Positions 9,472 through 25,110 of a stretch of 64,000 bases of DNA are shown piece after piece. Source of the DNA: Sphaerospermopsis sp. SIO1G1 (lineage in GTDB: Bacteria > Cyanobacteriota > Cyanobacteriia > Cyanobacteriales > Nostocaceae); the NCBI GenBank assembly GCA_010672785.1, contig JAAHFX010000009.1, forward strand, positions 2,690 through 66,689, written 5' to 3'. Position numbers and translations under genes: made by a program. Under the pieces are notes generated by a model that saw nothing but the letters and a program-made list of their open reading frames with translations, did no database searches and had not been told where the DNA came from. Position 1 is the first letter of the stretch. Every line of letters begins with the position of its first letter.

Positions 9472-10668
9472 GTGAATTTACGTCAATTAGTTCCCATTTT
9501 TGATAATCCTGTCTCCGGTTGGGCATTAGAAGCCCGTATATTACGCTGGTTAACTCTTGTGTGGCTATTTATGGGTTTGGTAGTGCTTTTTTCTGCTTCA
9601 TACCCAGTAGCAGACGAACGCCAAGGAGACGGAATGTATTATTTTAAGCGTCAAATTATTTGGGTTTTGGTTTCATTAATCATTTTCAACATAATTGTTA
9701 ATTTACCTCTGCATAGAATTTTAGGAGTATCCCATTGGTTTTTTATACTCTTCCTGGGATTAATTTTTATCACCCTTGTTCCCGGTTTAGGGAAAAAAGC
9801 TTTTGATTCTGCTCGTTGGATAGCAATTGGCCCTATTCCCATTCAACCATCAGAATTAGTCAAACCTTTTTTAGTTTTACAAAGTGCTAGGGTATTCGGG
9901 CGATGGGAAAAACTAAGCTGGGGAATTCGGATAGCTTGGTTAGTGATGTTTTGTTTAGTATTATTAGGAATTTTAGCTCAACCTAATTTAAGTACAACTG
10001 CTCTTTGTGGGATGACAATTTGGTTAATAGCCTTAGCAGGAGGAATACCATATCAATATCTAGGAGGAACAGCTGTAGGTGGGTTTTTATTAGCATTAAT
10101 GAGCATTTCCATTAAAGAATATCAACGCCGTCGGGTAATGTCTTTTCTTAATCCTTGGGCTGATCCTACAGGTGATGGTTATCAGTTAATACAAAGTTTA
10201 TTAGCAATAGGTTCAGGTCAAACTTGGGGGGCTGGATTTGGATTTTCACAACAAAAATTATTTTATTTACCAATTCAAGATACTGATTTTATCTTTGCTG
10301 TGTTTGCGGAAGAATTTGGTTTTGTCGGTAGCATCTTACTCTTATTAATGTTAGCAGCATTTACTACTTTAGGATTTATGGTAGCAATGAAGGCTAAAAA
10401 TGTCATTCATCGTCTGTTAGCAATTGGAATTACAGTTGTAATTATCGGGCAATCATTACTACATATTGGTGTTGCAACCGGTGCATTACCAACCACAGGT
10501 TTACCTCTACCTATGTTTAGTTATGGTGGGAATTCTATGATTTCTAGTTTAGTTGCTTGTGCTTTGTTAATTCGTGTAGCTAGGGAAAGTAGTGAAGCGG
10601 AAGTAGTACCTTTACCAATTAATCAACAAGAAACTAAAAGAAGAAGGAGAAGGAGAAGGAAAAGTTAA
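9472..10668 (+). CDS. ftsW: SEDS family cell division protein FtsW
   Basis: ARWIAIGPIPIQPSELVKP, GYQLIQSLLAIGSG, LPIQDTDFIFAVFAEEFGF, TGLPLPMFSYGG. Confidence 0.9.
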   Translation: MNLRQLVPIFDNPVSGWALEARILRWLTLVWLFMGLVVLFSASYPVADERQGDGMYYFKRQIIWVLVSLIIFNIIVNLPLHRILGVSHWFFILFLGLIFITLVPGLGKKAFDSARWIAIGPIPIQPSELVKPFLVLQSARVFGRWEKLSWGIRIAWLVMFCLVLLGILAQPNLSTTALCGMTIWLIALAGGIPYQYLGGTAVGGFLLALMSISIKEYQRRRVMSFLNPWADPTGDGYQLIQSLLAIGSGQTWGAGFGFSQQKLFYLPIQDTDFIFAVFAEEFGFVGSILLLLMLAAFTTLGFMVAMKAKNVIHRLLAIGITVVIIGQSLLHIGVATGALPTTGLPLPMFSYGGNSMISSLVACALLIRVARESSEAEVVPLPINQQETKRRRRRRRKS

Positions 10669-10950: not shown

Positions 10951-13053
10951 CTAACCATCATAGGATTGATAGGTTAAATTTTCTGGAGCAGGAAAACTTG
11001 GTGTTGTGTGTCTTGAACTTCCGTTTCTGTGGTTTTCTAATTCCACCATATACTGAATCTCATGTGCAGCCACAGGAATATTTTCTTGGTTGAAACGTTC
11101 CTGAATCATCTGTATCAACTCATCATAAACATACCAAAAGTCTGCGTGAGTTGCCCATGCACCTACATACATGGTCATATAATATCCTTCATAATTCCAT
11201 AAAAATGTTGATGGTTTGGGATTTTCTAGAACTTTGGGATGAGATGTCAAAATTTCCATCAATAGGTTTCTGACTCTTGTCAAATCTTCTTCAAGTCCTA
11301 CTCGCAATAACAGACTAACCATGCGAATGTCACCGTGACTGAGATTTTCAATCATGCCGCTCCAAACAGTATTGTTAGGAATAACATACATCTGTCCAGT
11401 GAAGCCTGAAATTTTGGTACTAGCTAAAGAAATGGAATCTACATAACCCCAAATACCACCGAGTTTAACTTCATCACCAATATCAAAGGGTTTGTTAAAC
11501 ATAATCATCAAACCACTAGCAAAGTTACCCAAATTACTTTGCAAAGCGAATGCTAAGACGAAACTCGCACCCCCAACTAAAGCTAAGATTGGTCCCAGGC
11601 TAACTTCTAATGCTGTCAGTGCTAACAACACACCTACAACAACACCACCACGCTTGACAACCATCACTATGAACTGACGTAGTAGTTCAGAACCACCGTT
11701 CAATTGTTGCAGAGATTTATTAACAATATTCCCTAATGATTGAGAAACGAAGAAAGAAACACCAATAATTCCTACAAATTTACCGATGTTAATGGCCCAA
11801 CGTATACCACCTTCTTCCGATTGTAACCAACTCATAATCCTGACCCCTGCACCTTCAGTATCTTGTAAATCAATCGTAATGATACTGATGGCTTCAATAT
11901 ATTTTTTGTAGGAATCAGGAGTTCCACCTTTACGTTCTAGTTCATCAAGAACTACTTTGAATCTATCAACTAAGGCGGTTCTTTCAGATTGTAGTTCTGT
12001 AACTGTCGCTACGAGTTGATTTTTTAATTCAGCTTCTTCTTGAGCATTTTTATCTAAATTTTCTGCTGCTTGTTCTAATTTATCCCCTTGTTGCTGGATG
12101 CTTTCTTGATCTTTTAAGGAATCTACTGAACCAGCCACTTTTGTACTACCATCGCCATCAATTTGAGTATTATTCAGGGCTGCTTCTGTTTGATTTAATT
12201 CCTGAGAAGATTTTTCGGTTGTATCTTGTGTTTTCACACCTTCTACTTCGTCAACAATTGTCAGGAGATTTTTCTGTGCTGTTTCTAATTGTTGGGTAGC
12301 TGCTTCAAATTCTGCTGAATCAGGAACAGTTTCTTTTTGTTTGTTTTGTGCATCTTCAAAGTCTTTAATTGCTGCCTCTAATCTATCAATTTTTTGGGTA
12401 GCATTGTCATAAGCTAAAGAACCGGCTGTTAATTGTTCTCGCTGGCTTCTAAGCTTGTCTAAATCTACTTTTCCTCGGTCTAAGACTTCTGTTTCTTTTG
12501 CCTTGTCTATGGCATCCTTTAAGTTACTATCCTGTTGGATATCTTTTTTAGCTTCCTGGGCTGCTTGAATAGAATCTTGTGCCTTTTGTAAGTTATCCTT
12601 GGCTTCTTCAAATTTTTTAGTCGCCTCTTCATACTCTGAAGAACCAGGAGCAGCAGATTTCAGTTGTTCTTCAGCCTTACTGAGAGATTCCTGAGCATTT
12701 TTTAAAGCATCCGCAGCTTCTTGTTGTTTATTAATACTTTCGTTCTGTCGCTTAATAGCTATTTCTGCATCACTAACTTGTTGGACTTTGGTCTTGAGTA
12801 AAATTAACCAAGCTGCTGATTCATTTTCCAATTCCGCTAATGTTAGTGGCTTGAGTAACAATTCTAATTGATCAACTGGAACTGTTGGATCTTGAGTGGT
12901 GATCGCAAACTCAGGATTTCCACTAGTAGCAGGTTGAACTTTTTCGCTTGTTTCTGTTTCTGCCGCATTTTCTTGAGTTTTAGCTGGCATACTCCACAGT
13001 GTAAATAGGCACACTACACTGGCAATAACTACGGCACGTACTCGGTAGCGCAT
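10951..13053 (-). CDS. Large mechanosensitive channel (MscS family) with long periplasmic coiled-coil N-terminus
   Basis: Signal peptide, ~400 aa acidic helical region, then GASFVLAFALQSNLGNFASGLMIMFNKPFDIGDEV (MscS core). Confidence 0.88.
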   Translation of the reverse strand: MRYRVRAVVIASVVCLFTLWSMPAKTQENAAETETSEKVQPATSGNPEFAITTQDPTVPVDQLELLLKPLTLAELENESAAWLILLKTKVQQVSDAEIAIKRQNESINKQQEAADALKNAQESLSKAEEQLKSAAPGSSEYEEATKKFEEAKDNLQKAQDSIQAAQEAKKDIQQDSNLKDAIDKAKETEVLDRGKVDLDKLRSQREQLTAGSLAYDNATQKIDRLEAAIKDFEDAQNKQKETVPDSAEFEAATQQLETAQKNLLTIVDEVEGVKTQDTTEKSSQELNQTEAALNNTQIDGDGSTKVAGSVDSLKDQESIQQQGDKLEQAAENLDKNAQEEAELKNQLVATVTELQSERTALVDRFKVVLDELERKGGTPDSYKKYIEAISIITIDLQDTEGAGVRIMSWLQSEEGGIRWAINIGKFVGIIGVSFFVSQSLGNIVNKSLQQLNGGSELLRQFIVMVVKRGGVVVGVLLALTALEVSLGPILALVGGASFVLAFALQSNLGNFASGLMIMFNKPFDIGDEVKLGGIWGYVDSISLASTKISGFTGQMYVIPNNTVWSGMIENLSHGDIRMVSLLLRVGLEEDLTRVRNLLMEILTSHPKVLENPKPSTFLWNYEGYYMTMYVGAWATHADFWYVYDELIQMIQERFNQENIPVAAHEIQYMVELENHRNGSSRHTTPSFPAPENLTYQSYDG

Positions 13054-13305: not shown

Positions 13306-14694
13306 GTGCATTTTAAACATTTACAAAACTCTTATTACACCATGCAAACAATTCATAAGTCAAATCAAGCACTTGTAGACAAAGTTCCTAATCTTAGTAA
13401 TTGTATTTGTGAGAACTTAATTAATTATTTTCTAGAGTCTTGGGAAATTGAAGAAACACTACTCAAAAGTATAATAAACCAAAATACATTTTATCTCAAT
13501 CCTGATCCTTTAAGAAATAAACTAATCTTTTATCTGGGACATTCAGCAGTTTTCTATATCAATAAGTTAATTCGAGTTGGGTTATTAGAACAACCCATTC
13601 ATCCCCAGTTTGAAATATTATTTGAAATTGGAGTTGATCCAGAAACACCAGAAGAATTAGCAGCAGTAACAAAAGATATAGAATGGCCGGATGTAGATCA
13701 AGTTTGGCAATATCGAGAACAAGCCAAAAATGCAATTATAAAAATCATCAAAAATACCCCTTTAAATCTACCTATTCAAGCCCAACATCCCCTTTGGGCT
13801 TTATTAATGGCAATTGAACACAGTCGCATTCATTTTGAAACCTCTTCTATGTTGCTGCGACAATTACCTGTAGATAAATTAGAACGTCCTCATGGTTGGA
13901 ATTATGCCCCTACTCAAGGAAAAACTCCTGCAAATCCAATGATAGAAATTCCTGGTGGAGTGGTGAAATTAGGGAAAAGAACTGATGATTTAACCTTTGC
14001 TTGGGACATGGAATATGGTAGTTTGGAAGTGGAAGTAAAACCCTTTTTAGCTAGTCAAAATTTAATCACCAATGGGGAATTTTTAGAATTTGTGCAAGCT
14101 GGTGGTTATGAAAATTCCGACCATTGGGATGTGGAAGGGTGGAATTGGCAGCAGTTAAATAATGTACAACATCCGAAATTTTGGATACCTGAAAAGCCAG
14201 GTAATTATCGTTATCGTGCTACTTTTGATGAACTAGATTTACCTTTAGATTGGCCAGTAGAAGTCAATTTTTATGAAGCAATTGCCTACTGTTGTTGGCG
14301 GGGTAAAGGGACTCGGTTAATGACCGAAGCAGAATGGAATCAAGCCTTAATTTTTTCTGAGCAAAATTGTTTAGAAAATAGCTATAACCTCAATTTAAAA
14401 TATATTTCACCCTCCCCTGTAGGAATGTTGACAGATTCTCAAAAATCAGTAATTTCTGATTTACGGGGTAATGTTTGGGAATGGTTATCTAGTAAATTTT
14501 ATCCCTTACCAGGATTTGCACCTAATTATCTTTACGAAGATAATGCTCAACCTTTTTTTGATGATAAACATCAGATGATGTTGGGTGGTTCTTGGGCAAC
14601 TAATGGTACAATGGCTTTGCCTTGTTATAGAAATTGGTTTCGTCCTTTTTTCTATCAGCACGTTGGTTTTAGAATTGCTGAAAGTCTAGCCTAG
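13306..14694 (+). CDS. Short OvoA-type 5-histidylcysteine sulfoxide synthase homolog without a C-terminal methyltransferase; likely ergothioneine sulfoxide synthase
   Basis: LRNKLIFYLGHSAVFYINKL (OvoA-like DinB domain); iron motif H-x3-H-x-E (HSRIHFE); FGE-sulfatase domain (GNVWEW, GGSW, YRNWFRPFFYQHVGFR). A later start at ATG 13342 is likely. Confidence 0.85.
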   Translation: MHFKHLQNSYYTMQTIHKSNQALVDKVPNLSNCICENLINYFLESWEIEETLLKSIINQNTFYLNPDPLRNKLIFYLGHSAVFYINKLIRVGLLEQPIHPQFEILFEIGVDPETPEELAAVTKDIEWPDVDQVWQYREQAKNAIIKIIKNTPLNLPIQAQHPLWALLMAIEHSRIHFETSSMLLRQLPVDKLERPHGWNYAPTQGKTPANPMIEIPGGVVKLGKRTDDLTFAWDMEYGSLEVEVKPFLASQNLITNGEFLEFVQAGGYENSDHWDVEGWNWQQLNNVQHPKFWIPEKPGNYRYRATFDELDLPLDWPVEVNFYEAIAYCCWRGKGTRLMTEAEWNQALIFSEQNCLENSYNLNLKYISPSPVGMLTDSQKSVISDLRGNVWEWLSSKFYPLPGFAPNYLYEDNAQPFFDDKHQMMLGGSWATNGTMALPCYRNWFRPFFYQHVGFRIAESLA

Positions 14695-14797: not shown

Positions 14798-15787
14798 ATG
14801 ATTTCAAAAACATTGGAAGCAGAGAATTTAACGGTTTTAGATCATCACTATCATGAACTAAAAGATGAAGGGCAAGATGTAATTAAGGGTTTGAGTAATA
14901 GTCCTAAAACTCTATCTCCTAAGTATTTGTATGATGATCGAGGCTCTTTGTTGTTTGAAGAAATATGTGATTTACCAGAATATTATCCTACTCGTACAGA
15001 AGCAGGGATTTTAAAACAATATGCTGATGAAATTGCAGAAATTACAGGTTGTTGTGAGTTGATAGAATTAGGTAGTGGTAGTTCTACCAAAACCCAGTTT
15101 TTATTAGATGCTTATCAAAAGATTTCTGACTATTGTAAATATCTACCCATTGATGTTAGTGGTAGCATTCTTAAAACCAGTGTTTTACAGTTACAAGAGA
15201 AATATCCTGAATTTCAGGTTCATGGTTTATTAGGAACTTATGAACAGGCGTTAGTTCATTTAGAAACTAATTATTTGCAGTCACGGTTGTTATTTTTCTT
15301 GGGAAGTTCTTTAGGGAATTTTAATCCTCAAGAATGTGATCAGTTCTTATCTAAAGTTGCGCGTACTTTACATCCAGGAGATTACTTTTTATTGGGGATT
15401 GATTTACAGAAACCCAAGCATATTTTAGAAGCAGCTTACAACGATGCTCAAGGAGTAACCGCTGCTTTTAATTTGAATATGCTCTCCCATTTGAATTGGC
15501 GTTTTCAAGGTGATTTTGATCTCAAATTATTCAAACACCAGGCAATTTACAATGAAGTTGACAATCAAATCGAGATGTATCTATACTCACAAGGAAGTCA
15601 TTGGGTAAACATCAAAGACTTGAATTTAACAGTTTTCTTTGAAGCAGGAGAAAGTATTTTAACGGAAATCTCCCGGAAGTTTGATTTAACAAACATGAAA
15701 GAAAGTCTACAAAACAAGGGATTAAACCCGGTAAAAACTTGGACAGATGAAAAGGGATGGTTTGGTTTAATTCTTTGCCAAGCTTAA
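14798..15787 (+). CDS. egtD: L-histidine N(alpha)-methyltransferase
   Basis: LSPKYLYD, LPEYYPTRTE, ELGSGSSTKT, GSSLGNF, AYNDAQGVTAAFN, QIEMYL, ILTEISRKF; His-pocket residues intact. Confidence 0.93.
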   Translation: MISKTLEAENLTVLDHHYHELKDEGQDVIKGLSNSPKTLSPKYLYDDRGSLLFEEICDLPEYYPTRTEAGILKQYADEIAEITGCCELIELGSGSSTKTQFLLDAYQKISDYCKYLPIDVSGSILKTSVLQLQEKYPEFQVHGLLGTYEQALVHLETNYLQSRLLFFLGSSLGNFNPQECDQFLSKVARTLHPGDYFLLGIDLQKPKHILEAAYNDAQGVTAAFNLNMLSHLNWRFQGDFDLKLFKHQAIYNEVDNQIEMYLYSQGSHWVNIKDLNLTVFFEAGESILTEISRKFDLTNMKESLQNKGLNPVKTWTDEKGWFGLILCQA

Positions 15788-15828
15788 ATAAAAAACTGGT
15801 GTAATTAACAAGATCAAGAGGAGTAAAA

Positions 15829-16803
15829 ATGGCAAATATAGTTGGAGATAAAAAAGTTGTTCATAAACTAGAAGAAGACGTAAAAGCATTCTTTTTAGAG
15901 CAACTGAATGGCAATTTGTGGCCTTACTTGTATGGAACTCCTCAAAATGAAGATGATTTAGTTAAAGGTGGTATCCTATACAACGAAATGCTTGAAGGTG
16001 AACAAGACTATTACCTTTACAAGTATGAAGCAAAACTTTTCCAAAGCAAAGGAAATGTTCTGACTAACCTCATTGGCCCTGATGCAACATTTATTGAATT
16101 AGGCCCTGGTAGTGAACAAAGTATTCGTCTAAAAACTGTACCTTTACTTCGTTTTTGTCAAAACTTAAAGGGTTACCTAGGAATTGAAATTTCCCAATCT
16201 TTTTTGGATAAAGTTTTAGAAGTAATTAGTTCTGAACTACCTAATATCTATGTATCTGGTATTCAGAATGACTTTACCCAACTGGATAGCTTACCAGAAT
16301 TTGATAAACCTGTAATTTTGTTCAAAGGTAGTACCATTGCTAACTTGAGAAAAGACGAAGTTCCTGTTTTCATGTCTTACATCAAGGAATTAGTCGGTAA
16401 AACTCACTATGTACTCCTTGTACATGATGCAAACCAAGATGAAATTTCCTTAATGAAAGCTTACGATACTCCCAAAATGGCAGTATTTATGGAAAACATC
16501 ATGTGTCGTGTTCATCGTGATATGAATTTAGTTGATTTTGATCCACTGGCATTTCGTTATAAGCCTGAATGGCATTCAGAGTCTCATGATCTTAAGCACG
16601 TTCTCACTGCTACTAAATCACAAAAATTTGTGTTAGGAAATAAAACTGTAGAAATTACAGAAGGACAAAAATTCCACACTTTGAGTTCTTTCAAATATCC
16701 TACGGATGTCTTCCAAAAACTCATTAGTTCTGCTGGATATAAACCAGTAGATTTTGTTTTTGATGAGTCTGGGCGTATGGCTGCTCACATTTTTGAGGGA
16801 TAA
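15829..16803 (+). CDS. EgtD-family SAM-dependent methyltransferase, divergent paralog 1
   Basis: DYYL, FIELGPGS, FKGSTIANL, KAYD, HTLSSFKY align to the EgtD fold, but the side-chain pocket is changed. Confidence 0.82.
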   Translation: MANIVGDKKVVHKLEEDVKAFFLEQLNGNLWPYLYGTPQNEDDLVKGGILYNEMLEGEQDYYLYKYEAKLFQSKGNVLTNLIGPDATFIELGPGSEQSIRLKTVPLLRFCQNLKGYLGIEISQSFLDKVLEVISSELPNIYVSGIQNDFTQLDSLPEFDKPVILFKGSTIANLRKDEVPVFMSYIKELVGKTHYVLLVHDANQDEISLMKAYDTPKMAVFMENIMCRVHRDMNLVDFDPLAFRYKPEWHSESHDLKHVLTATKSQKFVLGNKTVEITEGQKFHTLSSFKYPTDVFQKLISSAGYKPVDFVFDESGRMAAHIFEG

Positions 16804-16881
16804 TACCTAATTATAGCGATCGCCTATCATCAATTAATATTAGTTAACGGTGATAGGCGATATGTATGATTGCAAAAATCA

Positions 16882-17091
16882 TATCAAGAAGTTATCTGGT
16901 AAAAATCAAAAGCTTAAATTAAAAAGTTTTCTGGAAAAATAGAGAAAGTATTTTCACTAAAATATCCCGAAAGTTTGATTGAAAAAAACATAGAAAAACA
17001 TCTGCAAATCAAGGTGTTAAAACCTGTCAAAATCTGGGCAGATGACAATGAATAATTTGATTGGATTTTTGACCAAGCTTAGATAAAAAAC
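16882..17091 (+). pseudogene. Degenerate copy of the egtD 3' end and its downstream spacer
   Basis: For example GAGAAAGTATTTTCAC...AAGTTTGATT...AAAACCTGTCAAAATCTGGGCAGATGA...CCAAGCTTAGATAAAAAAC parallels 15648-15798; contains stops and indels. Confidence 0.8.
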
Positions 17092-17237
17092 AGATTTTAA
17101 AAAGATAGGTTGGCGTTCAAAATTAATCTGTTAATCAATTCCCTATAAATGGGTTAATTCAAAGTTTTCACAAAACTGAACACACATTGGTTTTGTTGTT
17201 TTGGCTTACTTATACAACAACTCATCAGGAGTAAAAA

Positions 17238-18212
17238 ATGACAAATGTAATTGGAGATAAAAAAGTTGTTCATAAACTAGAAGAAGATGCAAAAGCATTC
17301 TTTCTGGATCAACTTGATGGCAATTTGTGGCCTTACTTGTATGGAACTCCCGAAGATGAAAACGACTTAGTTACAGGAGGTATCTTATACAATGAAATAT
17401 TAACACAAGAACCAGATTATTATCTTTACAAATATGAAGCAGAACTTTTCCAAAATAAAGGTGATTTTCTGACTAATATAATTGGTTCGGATGCAACAAT
17501 CATAGAATTAGGCCCTGGTAGTGAACAAAGTGTCCGTTTAAAAACTATACCCTTACTTCGTTCTTTTATTAATTTAAAGGGTTATTTAGGAATTGAAATT
17601 TCTCAATCTTTCTTGGATAAAGCATTAGCAGTAATTAGTTCTGAACTACCTAATATCCATGTGTCTGGCATTCAAAATGACTTTACCCAACTAGAAAGCT
17701 TACCAGAATTTGATAAGCCTGTAATTTTGTTTAAAGGTAGTACAATTGGCAATTTAAGAAAAGATGAAGTTCAAGATTTCATGTCATATATCAAGAACTT
17801 AGTGGGTAAAACTCACTATGTACTCCTTGTACACGATGCAAATCAAGATGAAGTTTCCTTAATGAAAGCTTACAATACACCTAAAGTAGCAATGTTCGTT
17901 AAGAATATCATTTTTCGTTTTCATCGTGATATGAATTTAGTTGATCTTGATCCATCAGCATTTCGTTATCAATCAGAATGGCATTCAGAGTCTCATGATC
18001 TTAAACACATTCTCACTGCTACTAAATCACAAAAATTTGTGTTAGGAAATCAAACTGTAGAAATTAAAGAAGGACAAAAATTCCACACTTTGAGTTCTTT
18101 TAAATATCCCACTGATGTTTTCCAAAAACTCATTAGTTCTGCTGGATATAAACCAGTAGATTTTACTTTTGATGAGTCTGGGCGTATGGCTGCTCATATT
18201 TTTGAGGGCTAG
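17238..18212 (+). CDS. EgtD-family SAM-dependent methyltransferase, divergent paralog 2
   Basis: Same length (324 aa) and colinear with 15829-16803, with long identical blocks (e.g. GQKFHTLSSFKYPTDVFQKLISSAGYKPVDF). Confidence 0.82.
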   Translation: MTNVIGDKKVVHKLEEDAKAFFLDQLDGNLWPYLYGTPEDENDLVTGGILYNEILTQEPDYYLYKYEAELFQNKGDFLTNIIGSDATIIELGPGSEQSVRLKTIPLLRSFINLKGYLGIEISQSFLDKALAVISSELPNIHVSGIQNDFTQLESLPEFDKPVILFKGSTIGNLRKDEVQDFMSYIKNLVGKTHYVLLVHDANQDEVSLMKAYNTPKVAMFVKNIIFRFHRDMNLVDLDPSAFRYQSEWHSESHDLKHILTATKSQKFVLGNQTVEIKEGQKFHTLSSFKYPTDVFQKLISSAGYKPVDFTFDESGRMAAHIFEG

Positions 18213-18858: not shown

Positions 18859-19974
18859 ATGGAATCCATATTTAACGCGCTGAATAGCTTAGATTATTCC
18901 AATGTTCCGATTGGGAAGATATCAGCTGTAATTGTAGTCATAACAGTCACACAAACATTAAGAAGATTTGTCTTAGGAATTATTGTTAAAACTATTGAAA
19001 AATTCACCAGTCAGACGGAAACGACACTGGACGATGAATTAATTGCCATTCTTAAACCAGCATTGAATTGGCTCATTTTTATTAGTGGATTTTGGATAGT
19101 TAAGGAAATTATTTCCGAGGATTTAGGTCCAAAACTGGCTGAAAGTATTGGTAAAGCACTGAACCTAATAGTGGTTTTTATTATCGCCTATGTTGTTTAC
19201 CGCTCTGCATCAATTTTAGGACAACTAATTGCTAACTTTGTTTTACACACGGAAACTGAACTTGATGAATTACTGAAGCCATTAATGCCTAAGATTTTTC
19301 AAGCCGTAGCAATTATTGTGATTGCAATTAAAACTAGTGAGATATTTTTAGGACAATCTGCGGGAGCTTTAGTTGGTTTACTCGGTGGTGCGGGGCTGAC
19401 AATAGGACTACTATTTAAAGATATTGTTTATGATTGGTTTTGTACAATTATTATCTATTCAGATAATCTCTACAGAGAAGGTGATTGGGTGGGAATATCA
19501 GGGGTAGATGGTTTTGTTGAAATCAAAAATATAGGCTTTAGAACTACCACTTTACACCTAGCTAAGTGGGGATCAATCGTAAAAATGCCCAATTCTCGGA
19601 TGATCACTGGAATTGTCGACAATTGGTCTCAGAATCCAGGAGAAGAACTCAGATGGGGTTTAGCAACAACTATCAGAATTGACGGTATTTCTGCCAAACA
19701 AACTGCTAGGATTTGTGATGCTATGGAAGAAATGCCAAAATCAATAGCAGGTTTTGATCCTAGTTGTCTAGTTCGCTTCAAGAAAATTGAAGGAAATGCC
19801 CGTGTTCTTGAAATTATGGCATTTGTGAATGATGATAATCTTTATTTGGCCGCAGAGAGAAACTTACATTTAGCCATCTTAGAACTTTTAGAACAAGAAG
19901 GTATAGACTCTCTCTATGTGGAGTTAATTACAGAAACAGGAAAGTATAATCCCAGTCCAAGTTTCAACAATTAA
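18859..19974 (+). CDS. Mechanosensitive ion channel, MscS family
   Basis: TM helices; GGAGLTIGLLFKD...YREGDWV...IGFRTT...PNS. Confidence 0.88.
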   Translation: MESIFNALNSLDYSNVPIGKISAVIVVITVTQTLRRFVLGIIVKTIEKFTSQTETTLDDELIAILKPALNWLIFISGFWIVKEIISEDLGPKLAESIGKALNLIVVFIIAYVVYRSASILGQLIANFVLHTETELDELLKPLMPKIFQAVAIIVIAIKTSEIFLGQSAGALVGLLGGAGLTIGLLFKDIVYDWFCTIIIYSDNLYREGDWVGISGVDGFVEIKNIGFRTTTLHLAKWGSIVKMPNSRMITGIVDNWSQNPGEELRWGLATTIRIDGISAKQTARICDAMEEMPKSIAGFDPSCLVRFKKIEGNARVLEIMAFVNDDNLYLAAERNLHLAILELLEQEGIDSLYVELITETGKYNPSPSFNN

Positions 19975-20004
19975 ACACCTGTAAAAATATCGAGTATACA
20001 GATC

Positions 20005-20610
20005 ATGAAAACCAAAAACACTACTACTAACATCAACACGATTTATCCCAATAAAATCTGGACAAAAGTATTACTAATTACAGGGATAATTTTTTGTACA
20101 TCTTCTATGTATTCTTCTCCCGTTCAAGCTCAATCAAAAATTGACCAAGGAATTAACAACGACAAAATTTTAATAGCCCAAACTCTAGGAGGAATCATCC
20201 GCAAAATTCCTATTTCTGAAGTTCCACTTCCAGCCATGTCAGCGGCAAAAACAGTCACAAATGCTCAGTTTAACCAAGCTAGAATTGAACTGCAATCAGA
20301 GGGTTCTTCGATCTATGTACTCAGAGGTAAAAATCAACAAGGTTTTGAAGTAGAAGTGCAAGTTTCTCCTAGCGGAACAATTATGCAAGTAGACGAACAA
20401 ATAGATCCCACTTCAGTACCAGAAATTGCTGTTAGATCTTTTAAAAGATGGGCCCCCAATGATCCTCTGTTAAGTATTTGGCGTAGTACCAGACTAGGGG
20501 AATTATACTACCAATTTGTGATTGAGGAATTTTGGTTAGAAGTCTCCACCGATGGAGAAAAAGTTATTATTTATGACAGAACAAAATTGACACAGAGTTT
20601 AGGCAGATGA
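20005..20610 (+). CDS. Secreted protein with PepSY-like (BLIP-like) repeats
   Basis: Signal peptide AQS; two units beginning ISEVPLPA... and PTSVPEIA..., each followed by Y-x-x-x and EV-x-V-S-x-x-G. Confidence 0.55.
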   Translation: MKTKNTTTNINTIYPNKIWTKVLLITGIIFCTSSMYSSPVQAQSKIDQGINNDKILIAQTLGGIIRKIPISEVPLPAMSAAKTVTNAQFNQARIELQSEGSSIYVLRGKNQQGFEVEVQVSPSGTIMQVDEQIDPTSVPEIAVRSFKRWAPNDPLLSIWRSTRLGELYYQFVIEEFWLEVSTDGEKVIIYDRTKLTQSLGR

Positions 20611-20862
20611 GGTAAATATCATCATTAGCTGATAACTAGTCATTTTAGACACAGATAATTTTAGGTTTGGGATAAAAGTTAAGGTAGGAAATAAAAAGCA
20701 AGATTCAAACCACAGCATTGATGGAAATCATCAAACTATTTCTACCAAAGCTGCTAAGTTCCAAACCTGAAATTTTCCGGATCAATAATCATCAAATTTA
20801 TAAAACATCACTAAATCTCCGTTAACTATTAAAAACAAAATTTAACATAAAATATATAAAAT

Positions 20863-22443
20863 ATGGACATTTTAATCATTCTAGCTGAAGTTTTTTTAGT
20901 CATTCTATTTTTCATCATCCTGAGATTAATGGTGGCTAGTTCATTTAAGATATTAACTAGATTATCAATACTCAAGGGTGACAATTTAAAAATAAAAATA
21001 TTACGCCGTAACATCACTGGATTGTTGTTGCTGATATGTTTATTATTATGTACTGCTATTATCGGTATTAATAGTTTTCTCATCTATCAGGGGGAAAATC
21101 TCCAAGAATATACAATCAACCTCATTAATCAGATTCCTACTGGATTTTGGTTTGAATTGGGAAAAGGAATTGCTCAATGCTTTGTTTTGGTATTTGTAGC
21201 ATTTCTAGCTGTCAAGTTGACAAAATATTTATTCAAAAAAGCTAGTAATAAAGCTAAGAGATTTACAGAAAGCATCGCAGATGATGAAAGTATTGATGCT
21301 TTTTTTACCGCCCTTAATACAAGAATGAAAGTAGGAATTTGGATATGGGTTGTGATTGCCTGTACCCAATTCTTGCGTTTACCCATAGTAATCTTAGAAT
21401 ATTTATACATTGGACTGCGAATTTATCTAATTATTGCGGTAGGATTACTAATACTTAAAGCAGTAGATGCAATTGTTGACACTATAGATGTTCTGAGTGT
21501 CAGATACTCCAGTCCTGATCAAATATTGAGATTTTATGATCCCCTCAAACATCTGATTCCATTTTTAAAAAGATGTTTAGAATTGGTAATTTATGTCTGC
21601 ATACTAACATTAGTAATTCAGCAGGTAAAACTAATAGCTAACTTAGCAGGTTTTGGAGTTAAAATTATCCAAATTATCGCTATTATTTTTATCAGTCGTG
21701 TTATTTTCCAAGTAATTTGTTTACTGATGGAAGAGTTTTTATTACGAGATAATAGTTTAACTGATACCCAAAGAAGTAGACGTTTAACTCTAATTCCTTT
21801 ATTCCGCAGTTTATTACAATATCTTACTTACTTTACGGCGGCGGTTTCCATTCTCTATATTCTTAATATTAATCCCACTCCAATTTTAGCCGGTGCTGGT
21901 ATTGTTGGTCTCGCTGTAGGTTTAGGAGCGCAAACACTAATTAATGATATGGTTTGTGGGTTTTTTATTTTGTTTGAAAACTATTACTTAGTAGGTGATT
22001 ATATTCAGACAGTGAAAGAAGAAAGAACATTAGAAGGCGTTGTGGAAGCAATAGAATTGAGAACAACTCGAATTAGACATCCCAATGGACAATTGTATAT
22101 TATCCGTAATGGAGAGATTGGCTCAATTACAAATTATTCTAAAGATTACATCTTTGCTGTAGTAGAACTTAATGTACCTCATGATTCTGATTTAGCTGCT
22201 ATAGCTCAAAAAATTGAAGCAATAGGTAAACAATTACAAGTGAATGATCCTAATATACTTGAACCTACTTTTGTAGATGGTATAGAAAGTATTGGTGAGT
22301 CTAACTTGTTATTGCGAACTTTGACAAAAATGAAACCAGGACAACATCTTCAAGTACAGCGTACTCTTCGGAAAATTTATATAGATACTTTTTTAGCAGA
22401 GGGAATTTTACTTTCTACAGCTAATGAAGATAGCAATGATTAA
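20863..22443 (+). CDS. Mechanosensitive ion channel, MscS family, with extended N-terminal membrane region
   Basis: LAGAGIVGLAVGLGAQTLINDMVCGFFILFENYYLVGDYI...LRTTRIR...IIRNG. Confidence 0.9.
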   Translation: MDILIILAEVFLVILFFIILRLMVASSFKILTRLSILKGDNLKIKILRRNITGLLLLICLLLCTAIIGINSFLIYQGENLQEYTINLINQIPTGFWFELGKGIAQCFVLVFVAFLAVKLTKYLFKKASNKAKRFTESIADDESIDAFFTALNTRMKVGIWIWVVIACTQFLRLPIVILEYLYIGLRIYLIIAVGLLILKAVDAIVDTIDVLSVRYSSPDQILRFYDPLKHLIPFLKRCLELVIYVCILTLVIQQVKLIANLAGFGVKIIQIIAIIFISRVIFQVICLLMEEFLLRDNSLTDTQRSRRLTLIPLFRSLLQYLTYFTAAVSILYILNINPTPILAGAGIVGLAVGLGAQTLINDMVCGFFILFENYYLVGDYIQTVKEERTLEGVVEAIELRTTRIRHPNGQLYIIRNGEIGSITNYSKDYIFAVVELNVPHDSDLAAIAQKIEAIGKQLQVNDPNILEPTFVDGIESIGESNLLLRTLTKMKPGQHLQVQRTLRKIYIDTFLAEGILLSTANEDSND

Positions 22444-22536: not shown

Positions 22537-25110
22537 ATGAAAAATTTTAACACAGTATCTACTAAATACTCAAAATTTATAACTGCTACTTTAGTCGGTG
22601 CAACAACTACTATTTTTACAGCTAATACTGCATTTGCTCAAGTATTGAGAGGTGCTGGTGATGGTTTTGTAGAACCATTGCTAGAAAGTTATCGCCAAGA
22701 ATATGAAAAAGAAACAGGTGAAAAATTCAAATATACTGCTGTTGGTAGCGGTGGAGGAATTAGATTTTTTATTAATGACTCTGTAGATTTTGCTGCTACT
22801 ACTTTAATTCCTAGCCCCATTGAAATCAATCAAATGAAAGATGGTGCATTAATGTTGCCAACAGGGGGCGGTAGTATATCTGTTATTTATAATTTGCAAG
22901 AAGTTAGTAGCACGGTGCAATTATCCCGTGAAAAATTAGCGAAAATATTCACAGGTGAAATCACAAATTGGCAACAGGTAAATCCTAGATTTCCGAATCT
23001 AGAAATTCAAGTAGTAACTTGTGCTAAAAATTGTAGCACCAATTTTATTCTTACCAAATATCTCAATAAAATTACTGGGGGAAAAATATTACCTAGTAGA
23101 AATCCAGAATGGAGTTTTCCGATTTTTTCAGAATTAACAGATGACAGTGCGATCGCTGGCGAAGTACGCAGAACCGATGGAGCAATTGGTTATGTACAAA
23201 CTAGTGTAGCAATGAGAGAAAATATTACGATTGCTAGTCTGGAAAATAAGAGTGGTAATTATGTTCAACCAACTTTAGCAGAAACAAGAAAAGCCTTAGC
23301 AAATGTCAAATTCAGTAGTGATTTTACCACCGAAGATATTCAAGATCCAGAAAGTGGTTATCCTTTGGTGAGTTTAACTTGGCTATTACTTCCTCAAAGG
23401 TATGATGATCCAGAAGTTCTCGCCAAAACCCAAAAATTATTAGGATGGATTTTTACCCAAGGACAACAATTAAATCAAAATTTAGGATATACAAAAGTTC
23501 CTGATGAAATTAATAAAAAAGCCATTGCAGCCATTAAAAATCAATTACAAGTTGGTTCTGTAGCAGGAGTTAGCGGCAACAATTTAAAATTAAATTATAT
23601 CGGTAATTTATATGATAATGCTCCCAGTAATGTCCGACCAATTGTTAATGTCAACAAATTAGTAGATGTGAGTCCTCAACATTGGGCTTATTCAGCATTG
23701 AATGATTTGGCTGAACAACATCAATGTTTGAGTGGTACTTCTCGCAATACTTTTTCTGGGAATAGATCATTAAGTCGCCATGAATTTGCATTTATGTTAC
23801 ATTCCTGTTTATGGCAAATTAGACTTTCCTTAGATGATTTAAGAAAAAATAAAATTGCTGATGAAGATGATTTAGCAGTTGTACAAAGATTACAAACAGA
23901 ATTTAGTCAAGAACTAGAACAAGTATCCCAGAGAGTAGATAACTTAGAATCAAAAACAGCCACAATTCAAGCCCAGCAATTTAGTACAACTACTGTTTTA
24001 AAAGGCAGAGTTGATTTTAATGCCATTAGTGGTTTTGGTGATCGCAAAGCAGTACCTCCTGGTACTAATAACGCTGAAAAATTAACAGCAAATCCCACCT
24101 TTTCTGGCAGAGCATCATTAACTCTAGATACCAGTTTTACAGGTAAAGATAAACTGCAAACTCAACTAGTTGCAGGGAATATTAATAACCTCAGTAGTGC
24201 GATCACAGGCACAGATATGACAAGGTTAATCGGTGCTACAAACACAGGTAATGATGTGATATTGGGAACAATATATTATCAATTTCCTGTAGGAGATAAA
24301 GGCATAATTGCGATCGCACCAGCAGCAGATTTTCCTACTCGTATTTTTCCTGCACTTAACCCAGTCAGTTCCATTTCTAACTTTGGTGCAGAAAGTCCCA
24401 TTTATTCCTTTGCATTTGGTAGTGGTGCAATCGGTTACTATCAATTTAGTGATCAATTAGCAGCAGGAATTAGTTATTTAAGTCTTTCGGGTAATGATCC
24501 CAGTGAAGGAGGATTATTTGGGGGACAATATACCCTATTAAGTCAAATAACTTATACCCCATCAGATCAGCTAGGTATTGCTTTTACCTATGGTAATTAT
24601 TATGCACCCAGACCAGGATCAAGTCTTAATGTAACTGGTAGTAAAGGTAGTGAATTTGGTCAATTACCATTTGGAGGAGATACACCTACTTCTTCCAATG
24701 CTTTTGGTTTACAACTAACCTATAAAATCACTGATAAATTAGTGTTGGGCGGTTGGACAAGCTATTTTAATACAGAAAGCCAAGCCACAGCTAATTTGAA
24801 TGGAGTTAACTTTGATGCTGGTGCTAATGCAGATATTTGGAGTTGGGCAGTCACAGCATCCTTAACAGATATAGCTAAATCAGGTAGTCAGTTAAGTTTT
24901 GTATTTGGAATGCCACCTAAAGTTACAAGCAATGATATCTTGCAACGACAGGATCAAGATACTTCCTTACATTTTGAATTATCTTATCGTTACCCATTAA
25001 CAGAAAGAATTAATCTTACCCCTGGATTTTTAATGATTACTAATCCAGAACATAATAACGCTAATGATACAATCTGGGTAGGATTATTGAGAACCTCATT
25101 TAGTTTTTGA
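22537..25110 (+). CDS. Fusion of a PstS-fold substrate-binding domain with an SLH domain and OprB-type (carbohydrate/iron-uptake) porin
   Basis: One signal peptide (TAFA/Q). Residues ~35-337 are PstS-like (GAG, VGSGGG, DGAIGYV, GYPLVSLTWLL). Then SLH-like DVSPQHWAYSALNDL...LSRHEFA, a coiled coil, QFSTTTVLKG and a beta-barrel ending in ...RTSFSF. Confidence 0.88.
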   Translation: MKNFNTVSTKYSKFITATLVGATTTIFTANTAFAQVLRGAGDGFVEPLLESYRQEYEKETGEKFKYTAVGSGGGIRFFINDSVDFAATTLIPSPIEINQMKDGALMLPTGGGSISVIYNLQEVSSTVQLSREKLAKIFTGEITNWQQVNPRFPNLEIQVVTCAKNCSTNFILTKYLNKITGGKILPSRNPEWSFPIFSELTDDSAIAGEVRRTDGAIGYVQTSVAMRENITIASLENKSGNYVQPTLAETRKALANVKFSSDFTTEDIQDPESGYPLVSLTWLLLPQRYDDPEVLAKTQKLLGWIFTQGQQLNQNLGYTKVPDEINKKAIAAIKNQLQVGSVAGVSGNNLKLNYIGNLYDNAPSNVRPIVNVNKLVDVSPQHWAYSALNDLAEQHQCLSGTSRNTFSGNRSLSRHEFAFMLHSCLWQIRLSLDDLRKNKIADEDDLAVVQRLQTEFSQELEQVSQRVDNLESKTATIQAQQFSTTTVLKGRVDFNAISGFGDRKAVPPGTNNAEKLTANPTFSGRASLTLDTSFTGKDKLQTQLVAGNINNLSSAITGTDMTRLIGATNTGNDVILGTIYYQFPVGDKGIIAIAPAADFPTRIFPALNPVSSISNFGAESPIYSFAFGSGAIGYYQFSDQLAAGISYLSLSGNDPSEGGLFGGQYTLLSQITYTPSDQLGIAFTYGNYYAPRPGSSLNVTGSKGSEFGQLPFGGDTPTSSNAFGLQLTYKITDKLVLGGWTSYFNTESQATANLNGVNFDAGANADIWSWAVTASLTDIAKSGSQLSFVFGMPPKVTSNDILQRQDQDTSLHFELSYRYPLTERINLTPGFLMITNPEHNNANDTIWVGLLRTSFSF

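What the first reader, a model, noticed from the sequence alone, without database searches (positions are those of the whole stretch)
15829..18212. Two tandem EgtD-fold methyltransferases with a rebuilt side-chain pocket, candidate synthases for an unknown amino-acid betaine
Seen: directly after a canonical egtD are two 324-aa EgtD-family paralogs. I aligned them by eye to M. smegmatis EgtD, with numbering from memory. The alpha-amino/carboxylate and SAM contacts are kept: Y56 (DYY), the GxG motif (ELGPGS), N166 (GSTI[A/G]NL), Y206 (KAY), S284/K286 (SSFK). The imidazole-recognition residues are replaced: T213 becomes M (paralog 1, PKMAVF) or V (paralog 2, PKVAMF), E282 becomes L (TLSS versus TEIS), and M252 becomes H (DLKHVL versus QIEMYL). 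The neighbouring true egtD keeps all three. Established: swapping positions 252 and 282 in EgtD redirects it from His to Trp, and natural EgtD homologs methylate Trp, Tyr or DMAT (e.g. EasF). Inference: these enzymes N-methylate a non-histidine, probably hydrophobic amino acid, and the two copies may differ in substrate or methylation degree. This would be an uncharacterised betaine pathway attached to ergothioneine genes.
Basis: partly seen in the sequence, partly recalled or inferred. Interest (0 to 1): 0.85.

Follow-up and report, generated by a model that had tools for sequence, protein, structure and literature searches.

The report
Two non-histidine EgtD-like methyltransferases
Right after the ergothioneine genes of a cyanobacterium sit two intact, duplicated relatives of the histidine-methylating enzyme EgtD with a rebuilt side-chain pocket. 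They belong to a rare, uncharacterised clade from marine taxa that most likely methylates a different amino acid, possibly to make a salt-stress betaine.

Summary
Windows 15829-16803 and 17238-18212 encode two 324-aa proteins, 84% identical to each other and 24% identical to the true EgtD just upstream. Both have the EgtD fold (AlphaFold pLDDT 92; TM 0.83-0.86 to EgtD structures). They keep the SAM, alpha-amino and carboxylate contacts. The imidazole contacts are replaced: T213 to M/V with a 2-residue deletion, M252 to H, E282 to L, F47 to Y. Both score far below NCBI's EgtD cut-off.

These changes are shared across a small clade: 53 protein clusters and about 1% of sampled cyanobacterial genomes. 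Every named source is a taxon I know as marine. Both copies are under purifying selection (dN/dS 0.19). A decayed egtD 3' end upstream of copy 2 shows a tandem duplication.

The link to ergothioneine is local. None of 26 homologous loci has egtD, egtB or MscS nearby. At least two host genomes show neither egtD nor a sulfoxide synthase.

Best reading: a stand-alone N-alpha-methyltransferase for a free amino acid other than histidine. Three MscS channel genes around it and the marine distribution hint at an osmolyte. The substrate remains unknown. Homoserine betaine is unlikely, because Trichodesmium IMS101 keeps only a pseudogene fragment. Many other uncharacterised pocket variants exist in this superfamily.

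The parts
10951..13053 (-). MscS-family mechanosensitive channel, 700 aa, upstream flank of the block
   Evidence: PF00924 67.6 bits and PF21082. Also present in congener G033.
13306..14694 (+). OvoA-like sulfoxide synthase without the C-terminal methyltransferase domain. Most likely the cyanobacterial type IV EgtB.
   Evidence: TIGR04344 563 bits (cut-off 400); TIGR03440 210 bits, below its cut-off. The same egtD/OvoA-like pairing occurs in several other cyanobacterial genomes. EgtB-IV is described in PMC11030361, citing Liao & Seebeck 2017.
14798..15787 (+). Canonical egtD (L-histidine N-alpha-methyltransferase)
   Evidence: TIGR03438 411 bits, above the 290.9 cut-off. E 3e-70 to M. smegmatis EgtD. 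Keeps F47, T213, N217, M252 and E282.
15829..16803 (+). EgtD-like paralog 1 (P0003), starting 41 nt after the egtD stop. Pocket codons: Y51 15979-81, M217 16477-79, M221 16489-91, H257 16597-99, H283 16675-77, L285 16681-83. Kept contacts: Y61 16009-11, N172 16342-44, Y212 16462-64, S287 16687-89, K289 16693-95.
16898..17091 (+). Decayed copy of the egtD 3' end, containing stop codons. It is a scar of the tandem duplication.
   Evidence: 75% identical to 15604-15796, E 1e-33. It translates to ESIFTKISRKFD*... versus GESILTEISRKFD in EgtD.
17238..18212 (+). EgtD-like paralog 2 (P0004). Pocket codons: V217 17886-88, V221 17898-900, H257 18006-08, L285 18090-92.
   Evidence: Absent from congener G033.
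18859..19974 (+). MscS-family channel, 371 aa
   Evidence: PF00924 37.9 bits. Absent from congener G033.
20863..22443 (+). MscS-family channel, 526 aa
   Evidence: PF00924 55.5 bits and PF21088. Absent from congener G033.

Best explanation
Both genes encode active, SAM-dependent N-alpha-methyltransferases of the EgtD fold that act on a free L-alpha-amino acid other than histidine.

Shown:
- The fold is that of EgtD.
- The SAM site is intact (GxG, D148/F149).
- The residues that hold the substrate carboxylate (Y61, Y212, S287) and alpha-amine (N172, G167) in EgtD are kept.
- The imidazole-recognising residues are replaced by a conserved new set (Y51, M/V217, M/V/I221, H257, L/M/F285), with a 2-residue deletion.
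- Both copies are under purifying selection.

Inferred:
- The enzyme transfers one to three methyl groups from SAM to the alpha-amine by the EgtD mechanism, giving an N-methylated amino acid, probably a betaine.
- Because the gene is stand-alone in all other hosts, the substrate is a common metabolite and one enzyme suffices.
- In this genus the gene was captured downstream of egtB-egtD. In this species it was then tandemly duplicated, and two further MscS channel genes lie just downstream.
- The product may therefore be a stress or compatible solute released through those channels.
- Copy 2 has diverged more, including two pocket positions, and may prefer a different substrate or methylation state.
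For: - Family and fold: PF10017 E 1e-47 and 1e-53. AlphaFold pLDDT 92.2, pTM 0.87. Foldseek TM 0.83-0.86 to 15 EgtD chains, against at most 0.48 for any other methyltransferase listed.
- Kept and replaced residues across 46 clade members. Their roles in EgtD are documented in PMC8593015 and by entry 4pip, the M252V/E282A variant bound to tryptophan.
- Below the EgtD and EasF family cut-offs.
- Monophyletic clade, support 0.98, separate from the EgtD clade, support 0.999.
- dN/dS 0.19, dS 0.43.
- No conserved neighbours in 26 loci plus 5 annotated contexts.
- The family occurs in genomes where neither EgtD nor EgtB/OvoA was found (G004, G026).
- Every named host is a taxon I know as marine; habitat is my own knowledge, not a tool result.
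- Rare and patchy: 4 of 401 cyanobacterial genomes and 2 of 41 relatives.
- 3 of the genome's 7 MscS genes lie within 11.5 kb around the pair. The chance for a fixed 12-kb window is about 4e-7.
- ggpS is absent from 26 of 28 genomes searched, 24 of 26 of them holders.
Against: - No biochemical or expression data.
- A congener (G034) lacks the gene.
- Several subclade-B copies carry stop codons, so the function is dispensable.
- No betaine transporter or osmoregulatory gene is conserved next to it.
- The MscS association is seen only in this genus: one channel in the congener, three in this species.
- The ggpS absence has no matched control of marine non-holders.
- The pocket is largely hydrophobic, which is not typical of known compatible-solute precursors.
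Confidence: 0.6

Rival explanations
1. The paralogs belong to the local thiohistidine pathway. They would N-alpha-methylate a histidine derivative (2- or 5-thiohistidine, or an N-methylated imidazole) made with the neighbouring OvoA-like enzyme, giving an ergothioneine or ovothiol B/C-type variant.
For: - Copy 1 starts 41 nt after egtD on the same strand.
- The duplication unit included the egtD 3' end.
- The same order occurs in congener G033.
- The upstream enzyme scores as OvoA N-terminal domain.
- A modified imidazole would need new contacts.
Against: - None of 26 homologous loci has egtD, egtB/OvoA or MscS nearby.
- G004 and G026 hold the family but show no EgtD and no sulfoxide synthase at E 1e-20.
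- E282 and T213 are replaced by hydrophobic residues.
Confidence: 0.12
2. They are aromatic amino-acid (Trp, Tyr or Phe) betaine synthases, or tailoring enzymes of a secondary metabolite. This would resemble the engineered Trp-methylating EgtD, the fungal aromatic betaine synthases, or EasF.
For: - Loss of E282 and M252 is what redirects EgtD to tryptophan (entry 4pip).
- EasF is a curated subfamily of the same superfamily.
- The hosts are natural-product-rich marine filamentous cyanobacteria.
Against: - The replacements here are bulky (L, H, M, M), not the small residues (A, V) that enlarge the pocket in 4pip.
- EasF model score is 94-110 bits, below its 205.55 cut-off.
- No NRPS, PKS or prenyltransferase is conserved nearby.
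Confidence: 0.13
3. They methylate something other than a free amino acid, such as a peptide N-terminus, an amine or a lipid head group.
For: - The superfamily shows dozens of pocket signatures of unknown function.
- The clade has an N-terminal insertion (residues about 36-46) absent from EgtD.
Against: The carboxylate-binding triad (Y56, Y206, S284) and the amine-binding N166 and G161 are invariant in all 46 members. This argues for a free alpha-amino acid.
Confidence: 0.08
4. The copies are redundant or decaying duplicates with no function of their own.
For: - Subclade-B pseudogenes are frequent.
- Copy 2 is missing in the congener.
Against: - Both reading frames are intact.
- dN/dS is 0.19 at dS 0.43.
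- All catalytic motifs are kept.
Confidence: 0.04

Closest known systems
EgtD, L-histidine N-alpha-trimethyltransferase (M. smegmatis / M. tuberculosis; PDB 4PIM, 4PIN, 4PIO, 4UY5-7, 7SCF)
   Same: - Same fold (TM 0.83-0.86) and same Pfam family.
- Same SAM site.
- Same carboxylate contacts (Y56, Y206, S284) and alpha-amine contacts (N166, G161).
   Different: - 22-24% identity.
- 151 and 170 bits against the 290.9 cut-off of TIGR03438.
- Imidazole contacts T213, M252 and E282 replaced, plus F47Y, N217M/V and a 2-residue deletion.
- Not linked to egtB outside this genus.
Engineered EgtD M252V/E282A (PDB 4PIP), and the natural aromatic amino-acid betaine synthases reported by Vit et al. 2015 (recalled, not held in the library)
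   Same: Specificity is changed at the same two positions, 252 and 282, while the backbone contacts stay.
   Different: Here the replacements are H and L (bulky) rather than V and A. T213, N217 and F47 are also changed, so the pocket is reshaped rather than simply enlarged.
EasF / FgaMT family (dimethylallyltryptophan N-methyltransferase, TIGR03439)
   Same: Same superfamily, and also a non-histidine substrate.
   Different: - 94 and 110 bits against a 205.55 cut-off.
- No ergot-type or prenyltransferase genes nearby.
- Bacterial rather than fungal.
Glycine sarcosine / dimethylglycine N-methyltransferases (the glycine betaine pathway of halophilic cyanobacteria and archaea)
   Same: SAM-dependent stepwise N-methylation of an amino acid to a betaine compatible solute. 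This would be the functional analogue if the osmolyte reading is right.
   Different: A different methyltransferase family. Only the generic Rossmann core matches (TM 0.44-0.48).
Compatible-solute operons that carry their own MscS channel, such as the ectoine-mscS cluster of Nitrosopumilus maritimus (recalled)
   Same: Solute-synthesis genes sit next to an MscS-type release valve.
   Different: - The association here is seen in one genus only.
- It involves three channels.
- It is not shown to be co-transcribed.

Membership tests
Methyltransf_33 / EgtD-fold superfamily (PF10017) | Significant match to PF10017 over the full domain | tested here: met
   161.7 and 180.3 bits against a gathering score of 23, covering profile positions 25-302 of 304.
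Methyltransf_33 / EgtD-fold superfamily (PF10017) | Two-domain EgtD fold | tested here: met
   AlphaFold pLDDT 92.2. TM 0.83-0.86 to EgtD chains, against at most 0.48 for the other methyltransferases listed.
Methyltransf_33 / EgtD-fold superfamily (PF10017) | SAM motif, plus the residues binding the alpha-carboxylate (Y56, Y206, S284) and the alpha-amine (N166, G161) | tested here: met
   Invariant in 46 of 46 clade members. Roles are described in PMC8593015.
EgtD proper (TIGR03438 equivalog, L-histidine N-alpha-methyltransferase) | Score above the curated cut-off of 290.9 bits | tested here: not met
   151.3 and 169.9 bits. The neighbouring true EgtD scores 411.2.
EgtD proper (TIGR03438 equivalog, L-histidine N-alpha-methyltransferase) | Imidazole-recognition residues T213, E282 and M252 (plus F47, N217) | tested here: not met
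   M/V, L, H, Y and M/V respectively, with a 2-residue deletion before 213.
EgtD proper (TIGR03438 equivalog, L-histidine N-alpha-methyltransferase) | Genomic or functional coupling to a sulfoxide synthase (EgtB/OvoA-type) or EanB | tested here: not met
   Adjacent only in this genus. Zero of 26 other loci. G004 and G026 show no sulfoxide synthase.
EasF subfamily (TIGR03439) | Score above 205.55 bits | tested here: not met
   94.1 and 110.1 bits.
Compatible-solute (betaine) synthase | Salt-dependent expression, and accumulation of the product to osmotically relevant levels | not testable with these tools
Only circumstantial support: hosts are taxa I know as marine, MscS clustering, and ggpS absent in 26 of 28 genomes searched.
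Homoserine betaine synthase of Trichodesmium (gene unknown to my knowledge) | An intact copy in T. erythraeum IMS101, which accumulates homoserine betaine | tested here: not met
   The 7,750,108-bp chromosome I take to be IMS101 (G006, identified by length) has only a fragment with stop codons. The fragment is 71% identical to Okeania subclade B over residues 197-300.

The most novel reading that the evidence does not exclude
The clade is the missing single-enzyme synthase of an orphan or entirely new amino-acid betaine osmolyte of marine filamentous cyanobacteria and sulfur bacteria. Glutamate betaine is one example: it has been reported in cyanobacteria since 1984 and, to my knowledge, has no assigned gene. 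In this species the duplicated synthase and three MscS release valves would form a dedicated make-and-dump osmotic island.
Probability: 0.25. Interest if true: 0.75.

Novelty: new variant of a known kind. Interest (0 to 1): 0.5.

Why it matters
The EgtD fold is a platform for making amino-acid betaines. Only the histidine enzyme (with one engineered Trp variant) has a solved structure, and only a few specificities (histidine, DMAT via EasF and, from memory, Trp and Tyr) have been reported.

This clade is small and sharply defined, and all its named hosts are taxa I know as marine. It has a conserved, rebuilt pocket and is annotated in public records as 'L-histidine N(alpha)-methyltransferase', which is very probably wrong.

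Identifying its product could add a betaine to marine organic nitrogen and methyl-group cycling. It could also assign a gene to an orphan cyanobacterial solute and supply natural specificity rules for engineering EgtD-type enzymes. The tandem pair offers a natural experiment in pocket divergence (M217V, M221V).

Tried and rejected
1. Homoserine betaine synthase (the main Trichodesmium solute). Rejected as the leading candidate: the chromosome I take to be IMS101 keeps only a stop-ridden fragment of the related subclade B.
2. Conserved gene neighbourhood. None was found in 26 genome loci by all-against-all clustering, nor in five Pfam-annotated contexts: Roseofilum, Electrothrix, Geitlerinema, a 508-kb metagenome contig and a Pseudomonadota MAG.
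3. Dependence on ergothioneine or ovothiol genes. Not supported.
4. An earlier scan note placed an Okeania EgtD-like gene inside a betaine importer cluster. In the one Okeania genome and one Dapis genome I examined, subclade B is flanked by a GT21 glycosyltransferase and a DegT aminotransferase, and in Okeania also an Stf0 sulfotransferase. A third Okeania paralog is flanked by folD and a polyprenyl synthase. Neither sits among transporters, so that lead does not transfer to this clade.
5. Enrichment of copy-2-specific substitutions in the pocket helix 213-228. Six of 31 fall there, nominal p = 0.002, but p = 0.15 when any 16-residue window is allowed. This is only suggestive.
6. Naming the nearest non-clade representatives. 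None carries a name.
7. RNA-seq evidence.
8. Pade et al. 2016 (PMC5135383) is not held. Literature searches for characterised EgtD homologues of new specificity found nothing relevant.
9. Pocket geometry and docking. Model coordinates are not exposed.
Full report
**What is there**

The + strand carries, in order:
- an OvoA-like sulfoxide synthase (13306-14694);
- egtD (14798-15787);
- two 324-aa ORFs (15829-16803 and 17238-18212).

The first gene scores 563 bits on TIGR04344 (cut-off 400) and only 210 bits on the EgtB model. It lacks OvoA's C-terminal methyltransferase domain. In several other cyanobacterial genomes it is paired with egtD. This fits the OvoA-derived 'EgtB-IV' of cyanobacteria (PMC11030361, citing Liao & Seebeck 2017).

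The egtD is canonical: 411 bits against a 290.9 cut-off and E 3e-70 to M. smegmatis EgtD.

The two following ORFs (P0003, P0004) match PF10017. They reach only 151 and 170 bits on the EgtD model and 94 and 110 bits on the EasF model, both below cut-off. They are 84% identical to each other without gaps and 24% identical to the neighbouring EgtD.

I reproduced it with HMMER against EgtD chains 4pim/4pip and with a MAFFT alignment of 46 clade members plus two EgtDs. Numbering was anchored on the M252V/E282A differences of entry 4pip.
- Kept, invariant in the clade: Y39, Y56, G161, N166, Y206, S284, K286 and the GxG motif.
- In EgtD, Y56, Y206 and S284 bind the carboxylate and N166 the alpha-amine. 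T213 positions the water that contacts the imidazole, and E282 is a key side-chain contact (PMC8593015).
- Replaced: T213 to M or V with a 2-residue deletion before it; M252 to H (42 of 46); E282 to L, M or F.

An AlphaFold model built on the clade alignment is confident (pLDDT 92.2). It superposes on EgtD structures with TM 0.83-0.86, while every other methyltransferase listed scores 0.48 or less.

**Family and distribution**
- A search of 5.8 billion proteins finds only 53 clusters.
- An exhaustive HMMER scan shows the clade embedded in a large PF10017 superfamily.
- In that superfamily the backbone-binding residues are nearly universal, but the side-chain positions take dozens of combinations.
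- The close clade ('A', 47-76% identity) is monophyletic (support 0.98) and separate from the EgtD clade (0.999).
- A second clade ('B', 35-40% identity) shares the pocket signature, but its sister relation to A is unresolved.

Named hosts:
- Clade A: Roseofilum, Symploca, Oscillatoria, Phormidium, Geitlerinema, Calothrix rhizosoleniae, Ca. Electrothrix gigas and a Desulfococcaceae bacterium.
- Clade B: Okeania, Dapis, Lyngbya aestuarii, Hormoscilla, Rivularia, Prochloraceae, a Trichodesmium MAG and Ca. Albibeggiatoa.

All are taxa I know as marine or hypersaline. That habitat assignment is my own knowledge, not a tool result.

The gene is rare and patchy:
- 4 of 401 cyanobacterial genomes and 3 of 155 genera;
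- 2 of 41 relatives, with one congener lacking it.

This pattern suggests horizontal spread among organisms sharing marine mat and sediment habitats.

**Context**

Nothing is conserved next to the gene elsewhere.
- None of 26 loci has egtD, egtB/OvoA or MscS within 7 kb.
- Annotated contexts differ completely.
- Calothrix rhizosoleniae (G004) and a Prochloraceae MAG (G026) hold the gene but show neither EgtD nor a sulfoxide synthase. The caveat is that both are draft assemblies.

So the family's function does not depend on ergothioneine synthesis.

**History at this locus**

In the congener G033 the order is MscS(-), OvoA-like, egtD and one paralog (92% identical to copy 1). The 201-aa ORF and the PstS-porin gene follow directly.

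In this species three things are added:
- copy 2;
- a 371-aa MscS;
- a 526-aa MscS.

A 194-nt decayed copy of the egtD 3' end (16898-17091) lies upstream of copy 2. It is 75% identical to the original, carries stop codons and still reads ...ISRKFD. It proves a tandem duplication of a unit that already included the end of egtD.

- The copies have dS 0.43 and dN/dS 0.19, so both are maintained.
- Copy 2 carries 31 private substitutions, against 11 in copy 1 and 7 in the congener's copy.
- These include M217V and M221V at two pocket-lining positions. Those are states that also occur together elsewhere in the family.
- The apparent concentration of changes in helix 213-228 is only suggestive.

**Function**

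The intact SAM site and amino-acid backbone contacts, together with the conserved replacement of the imidazole contacts, make an N-alpha-methyltransferase for a non-histidine free amino acid the best reading. My confidence in that is about 0.6.

Stand-alone occurrence implies a common metabolite as substrate and a one-enzyme pathway, as with histidine to hercynine.

An osmolyte or stress-solute role is hinted at by several observations:
- the marine host range;
- three of the genome's seven MscS genes lying within 11.5 kb around the pair (chance for a fixed window about 4e-7);
- absence of the glucosylglycerol gene ggpS from 26 of the 28 genomes searched. That set is 26 holders plus the G034 congener and the IMS101 chromosome, and 24 of the 26 holders lack it. 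There is no matched control.

Orphan cyanobacterial betaines exist. Glutamate betaine is one (PMC4390839 and PMC7824335) and homoserine betaine in Trichodesmium is another (PMC6753628).

Homoserine betaine is unlikely for this family. The 7,750,108-bp chromosome that I take to be T. erythraeum IMS101 (identified by its length) retains only a stop-ridden fragment of subclade B.

The pocket combines hydrophobic walls (M/V217, F220, M/V221, L285) with polar residues (Y51, H257, H283). The replacements are bulky, unlike the A and V substitutions that open EgtD to tryptophan in 4pip. I therefore lean toward a small or medium side chain, but I could not test this.

**Limits**
- No access to model coordinates.
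- No biochemical literature on this clade in the held library.

**Verdict**

This is a new specificity variant within a known enzyme kind.

Interest is moderate. The clade is well defined, ecologically coherent, and probably mis-annotated in public records as histidine methyltransferase. It is also one of many unexplored pocket variants in this superfamily, and its product is unknown.

Noticed in passing
G006:C1:7087602-7087970 (L068) and G006:C1:1137030-1138022 (L067 5030-6022, minus strand): The 7.75-Mb chromosome that matches T. erythraeum IMS101 by length has a pseudogene fragment of subclade B. It also has an intact, very divergent 330-aa PF10017 paralog (95 bits) in which the Y56 equivalent aligns to R. 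Similar 'type 3' paralogs occur in most genomes of that genus. The homoserine betaine synthase is, to my knowledge, still unassigned.
   Followed up: partly
L059 7001-7969 (Ca. Electrothrix gigas, CALOCB020000015.1): The cable-bacterium homologue sits inside the dcw cell-wall cluster, between murD and murG, together with a P-type ATPase and where ftsW is normally found. In the window the island begins right after an ftsW/rodA-family gene (9472-10668).
   Followed up: no
L014 6501-12323; L016 8172-12461: Subclade-B genes of Okeania and Dapis are flanked by a GT21-family glycosyltransferase and a DegT-type aminotransferase; Okeania (L014) also has an Stf0 sulfotransferase. Several subclade-B copies carry internal stop codons (G007, G009, G027, G032).
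   Followed up: partly
G017:C9:7678-10984: One Roseofilum genome has egtD, an OvoA-like gene and then a second high-scoring EgtD-type gene (340 bits) in a row. This is a different kind of EgtD duplication next to the egt genes.
   Followed up: no
L027 (GCA_010672725.1, JAAHFY010000021.1) versus window 19975-22443: A public contig encodes proteins 98.6-100% identical from the MscS700 gene through the MscS371 gene (both paralogs, EgtD and MscS371 at 100%). It then continues with psaK, sufE and others instead of the 201-aa ORF and the 526-aa MscS of the window. This is either a rearrangement or an assembly difference.
   Followed up: no
window 22537-25110: An 857-aa ORF combines a PBP_like_2 (PstS-type) domain with an OprB porin domain in one polypeptide (Pfam). 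It is conserved in the congener (82% identity).
   Followed up: partly
public annotations of P0019, P0020, P0028, P0033, P0042 and others: Clade members are named 'L-histidine N(alpha)-methyltransferase' in NCBI and UniRef. The two window copies score about half the TIGR03438 cut-off, and all members lack the imidazole contacts. This is probably over-annotation.
   Followed up: yes
window 16804-16870: Directly after the stop of copy 1 lies a HIP1-containing inverted repeat (ATAGCGATCGCCTATCA ... TGATAGGCGAT). It may be a transcript-end hairpin between the two copies.
   Followed up: no
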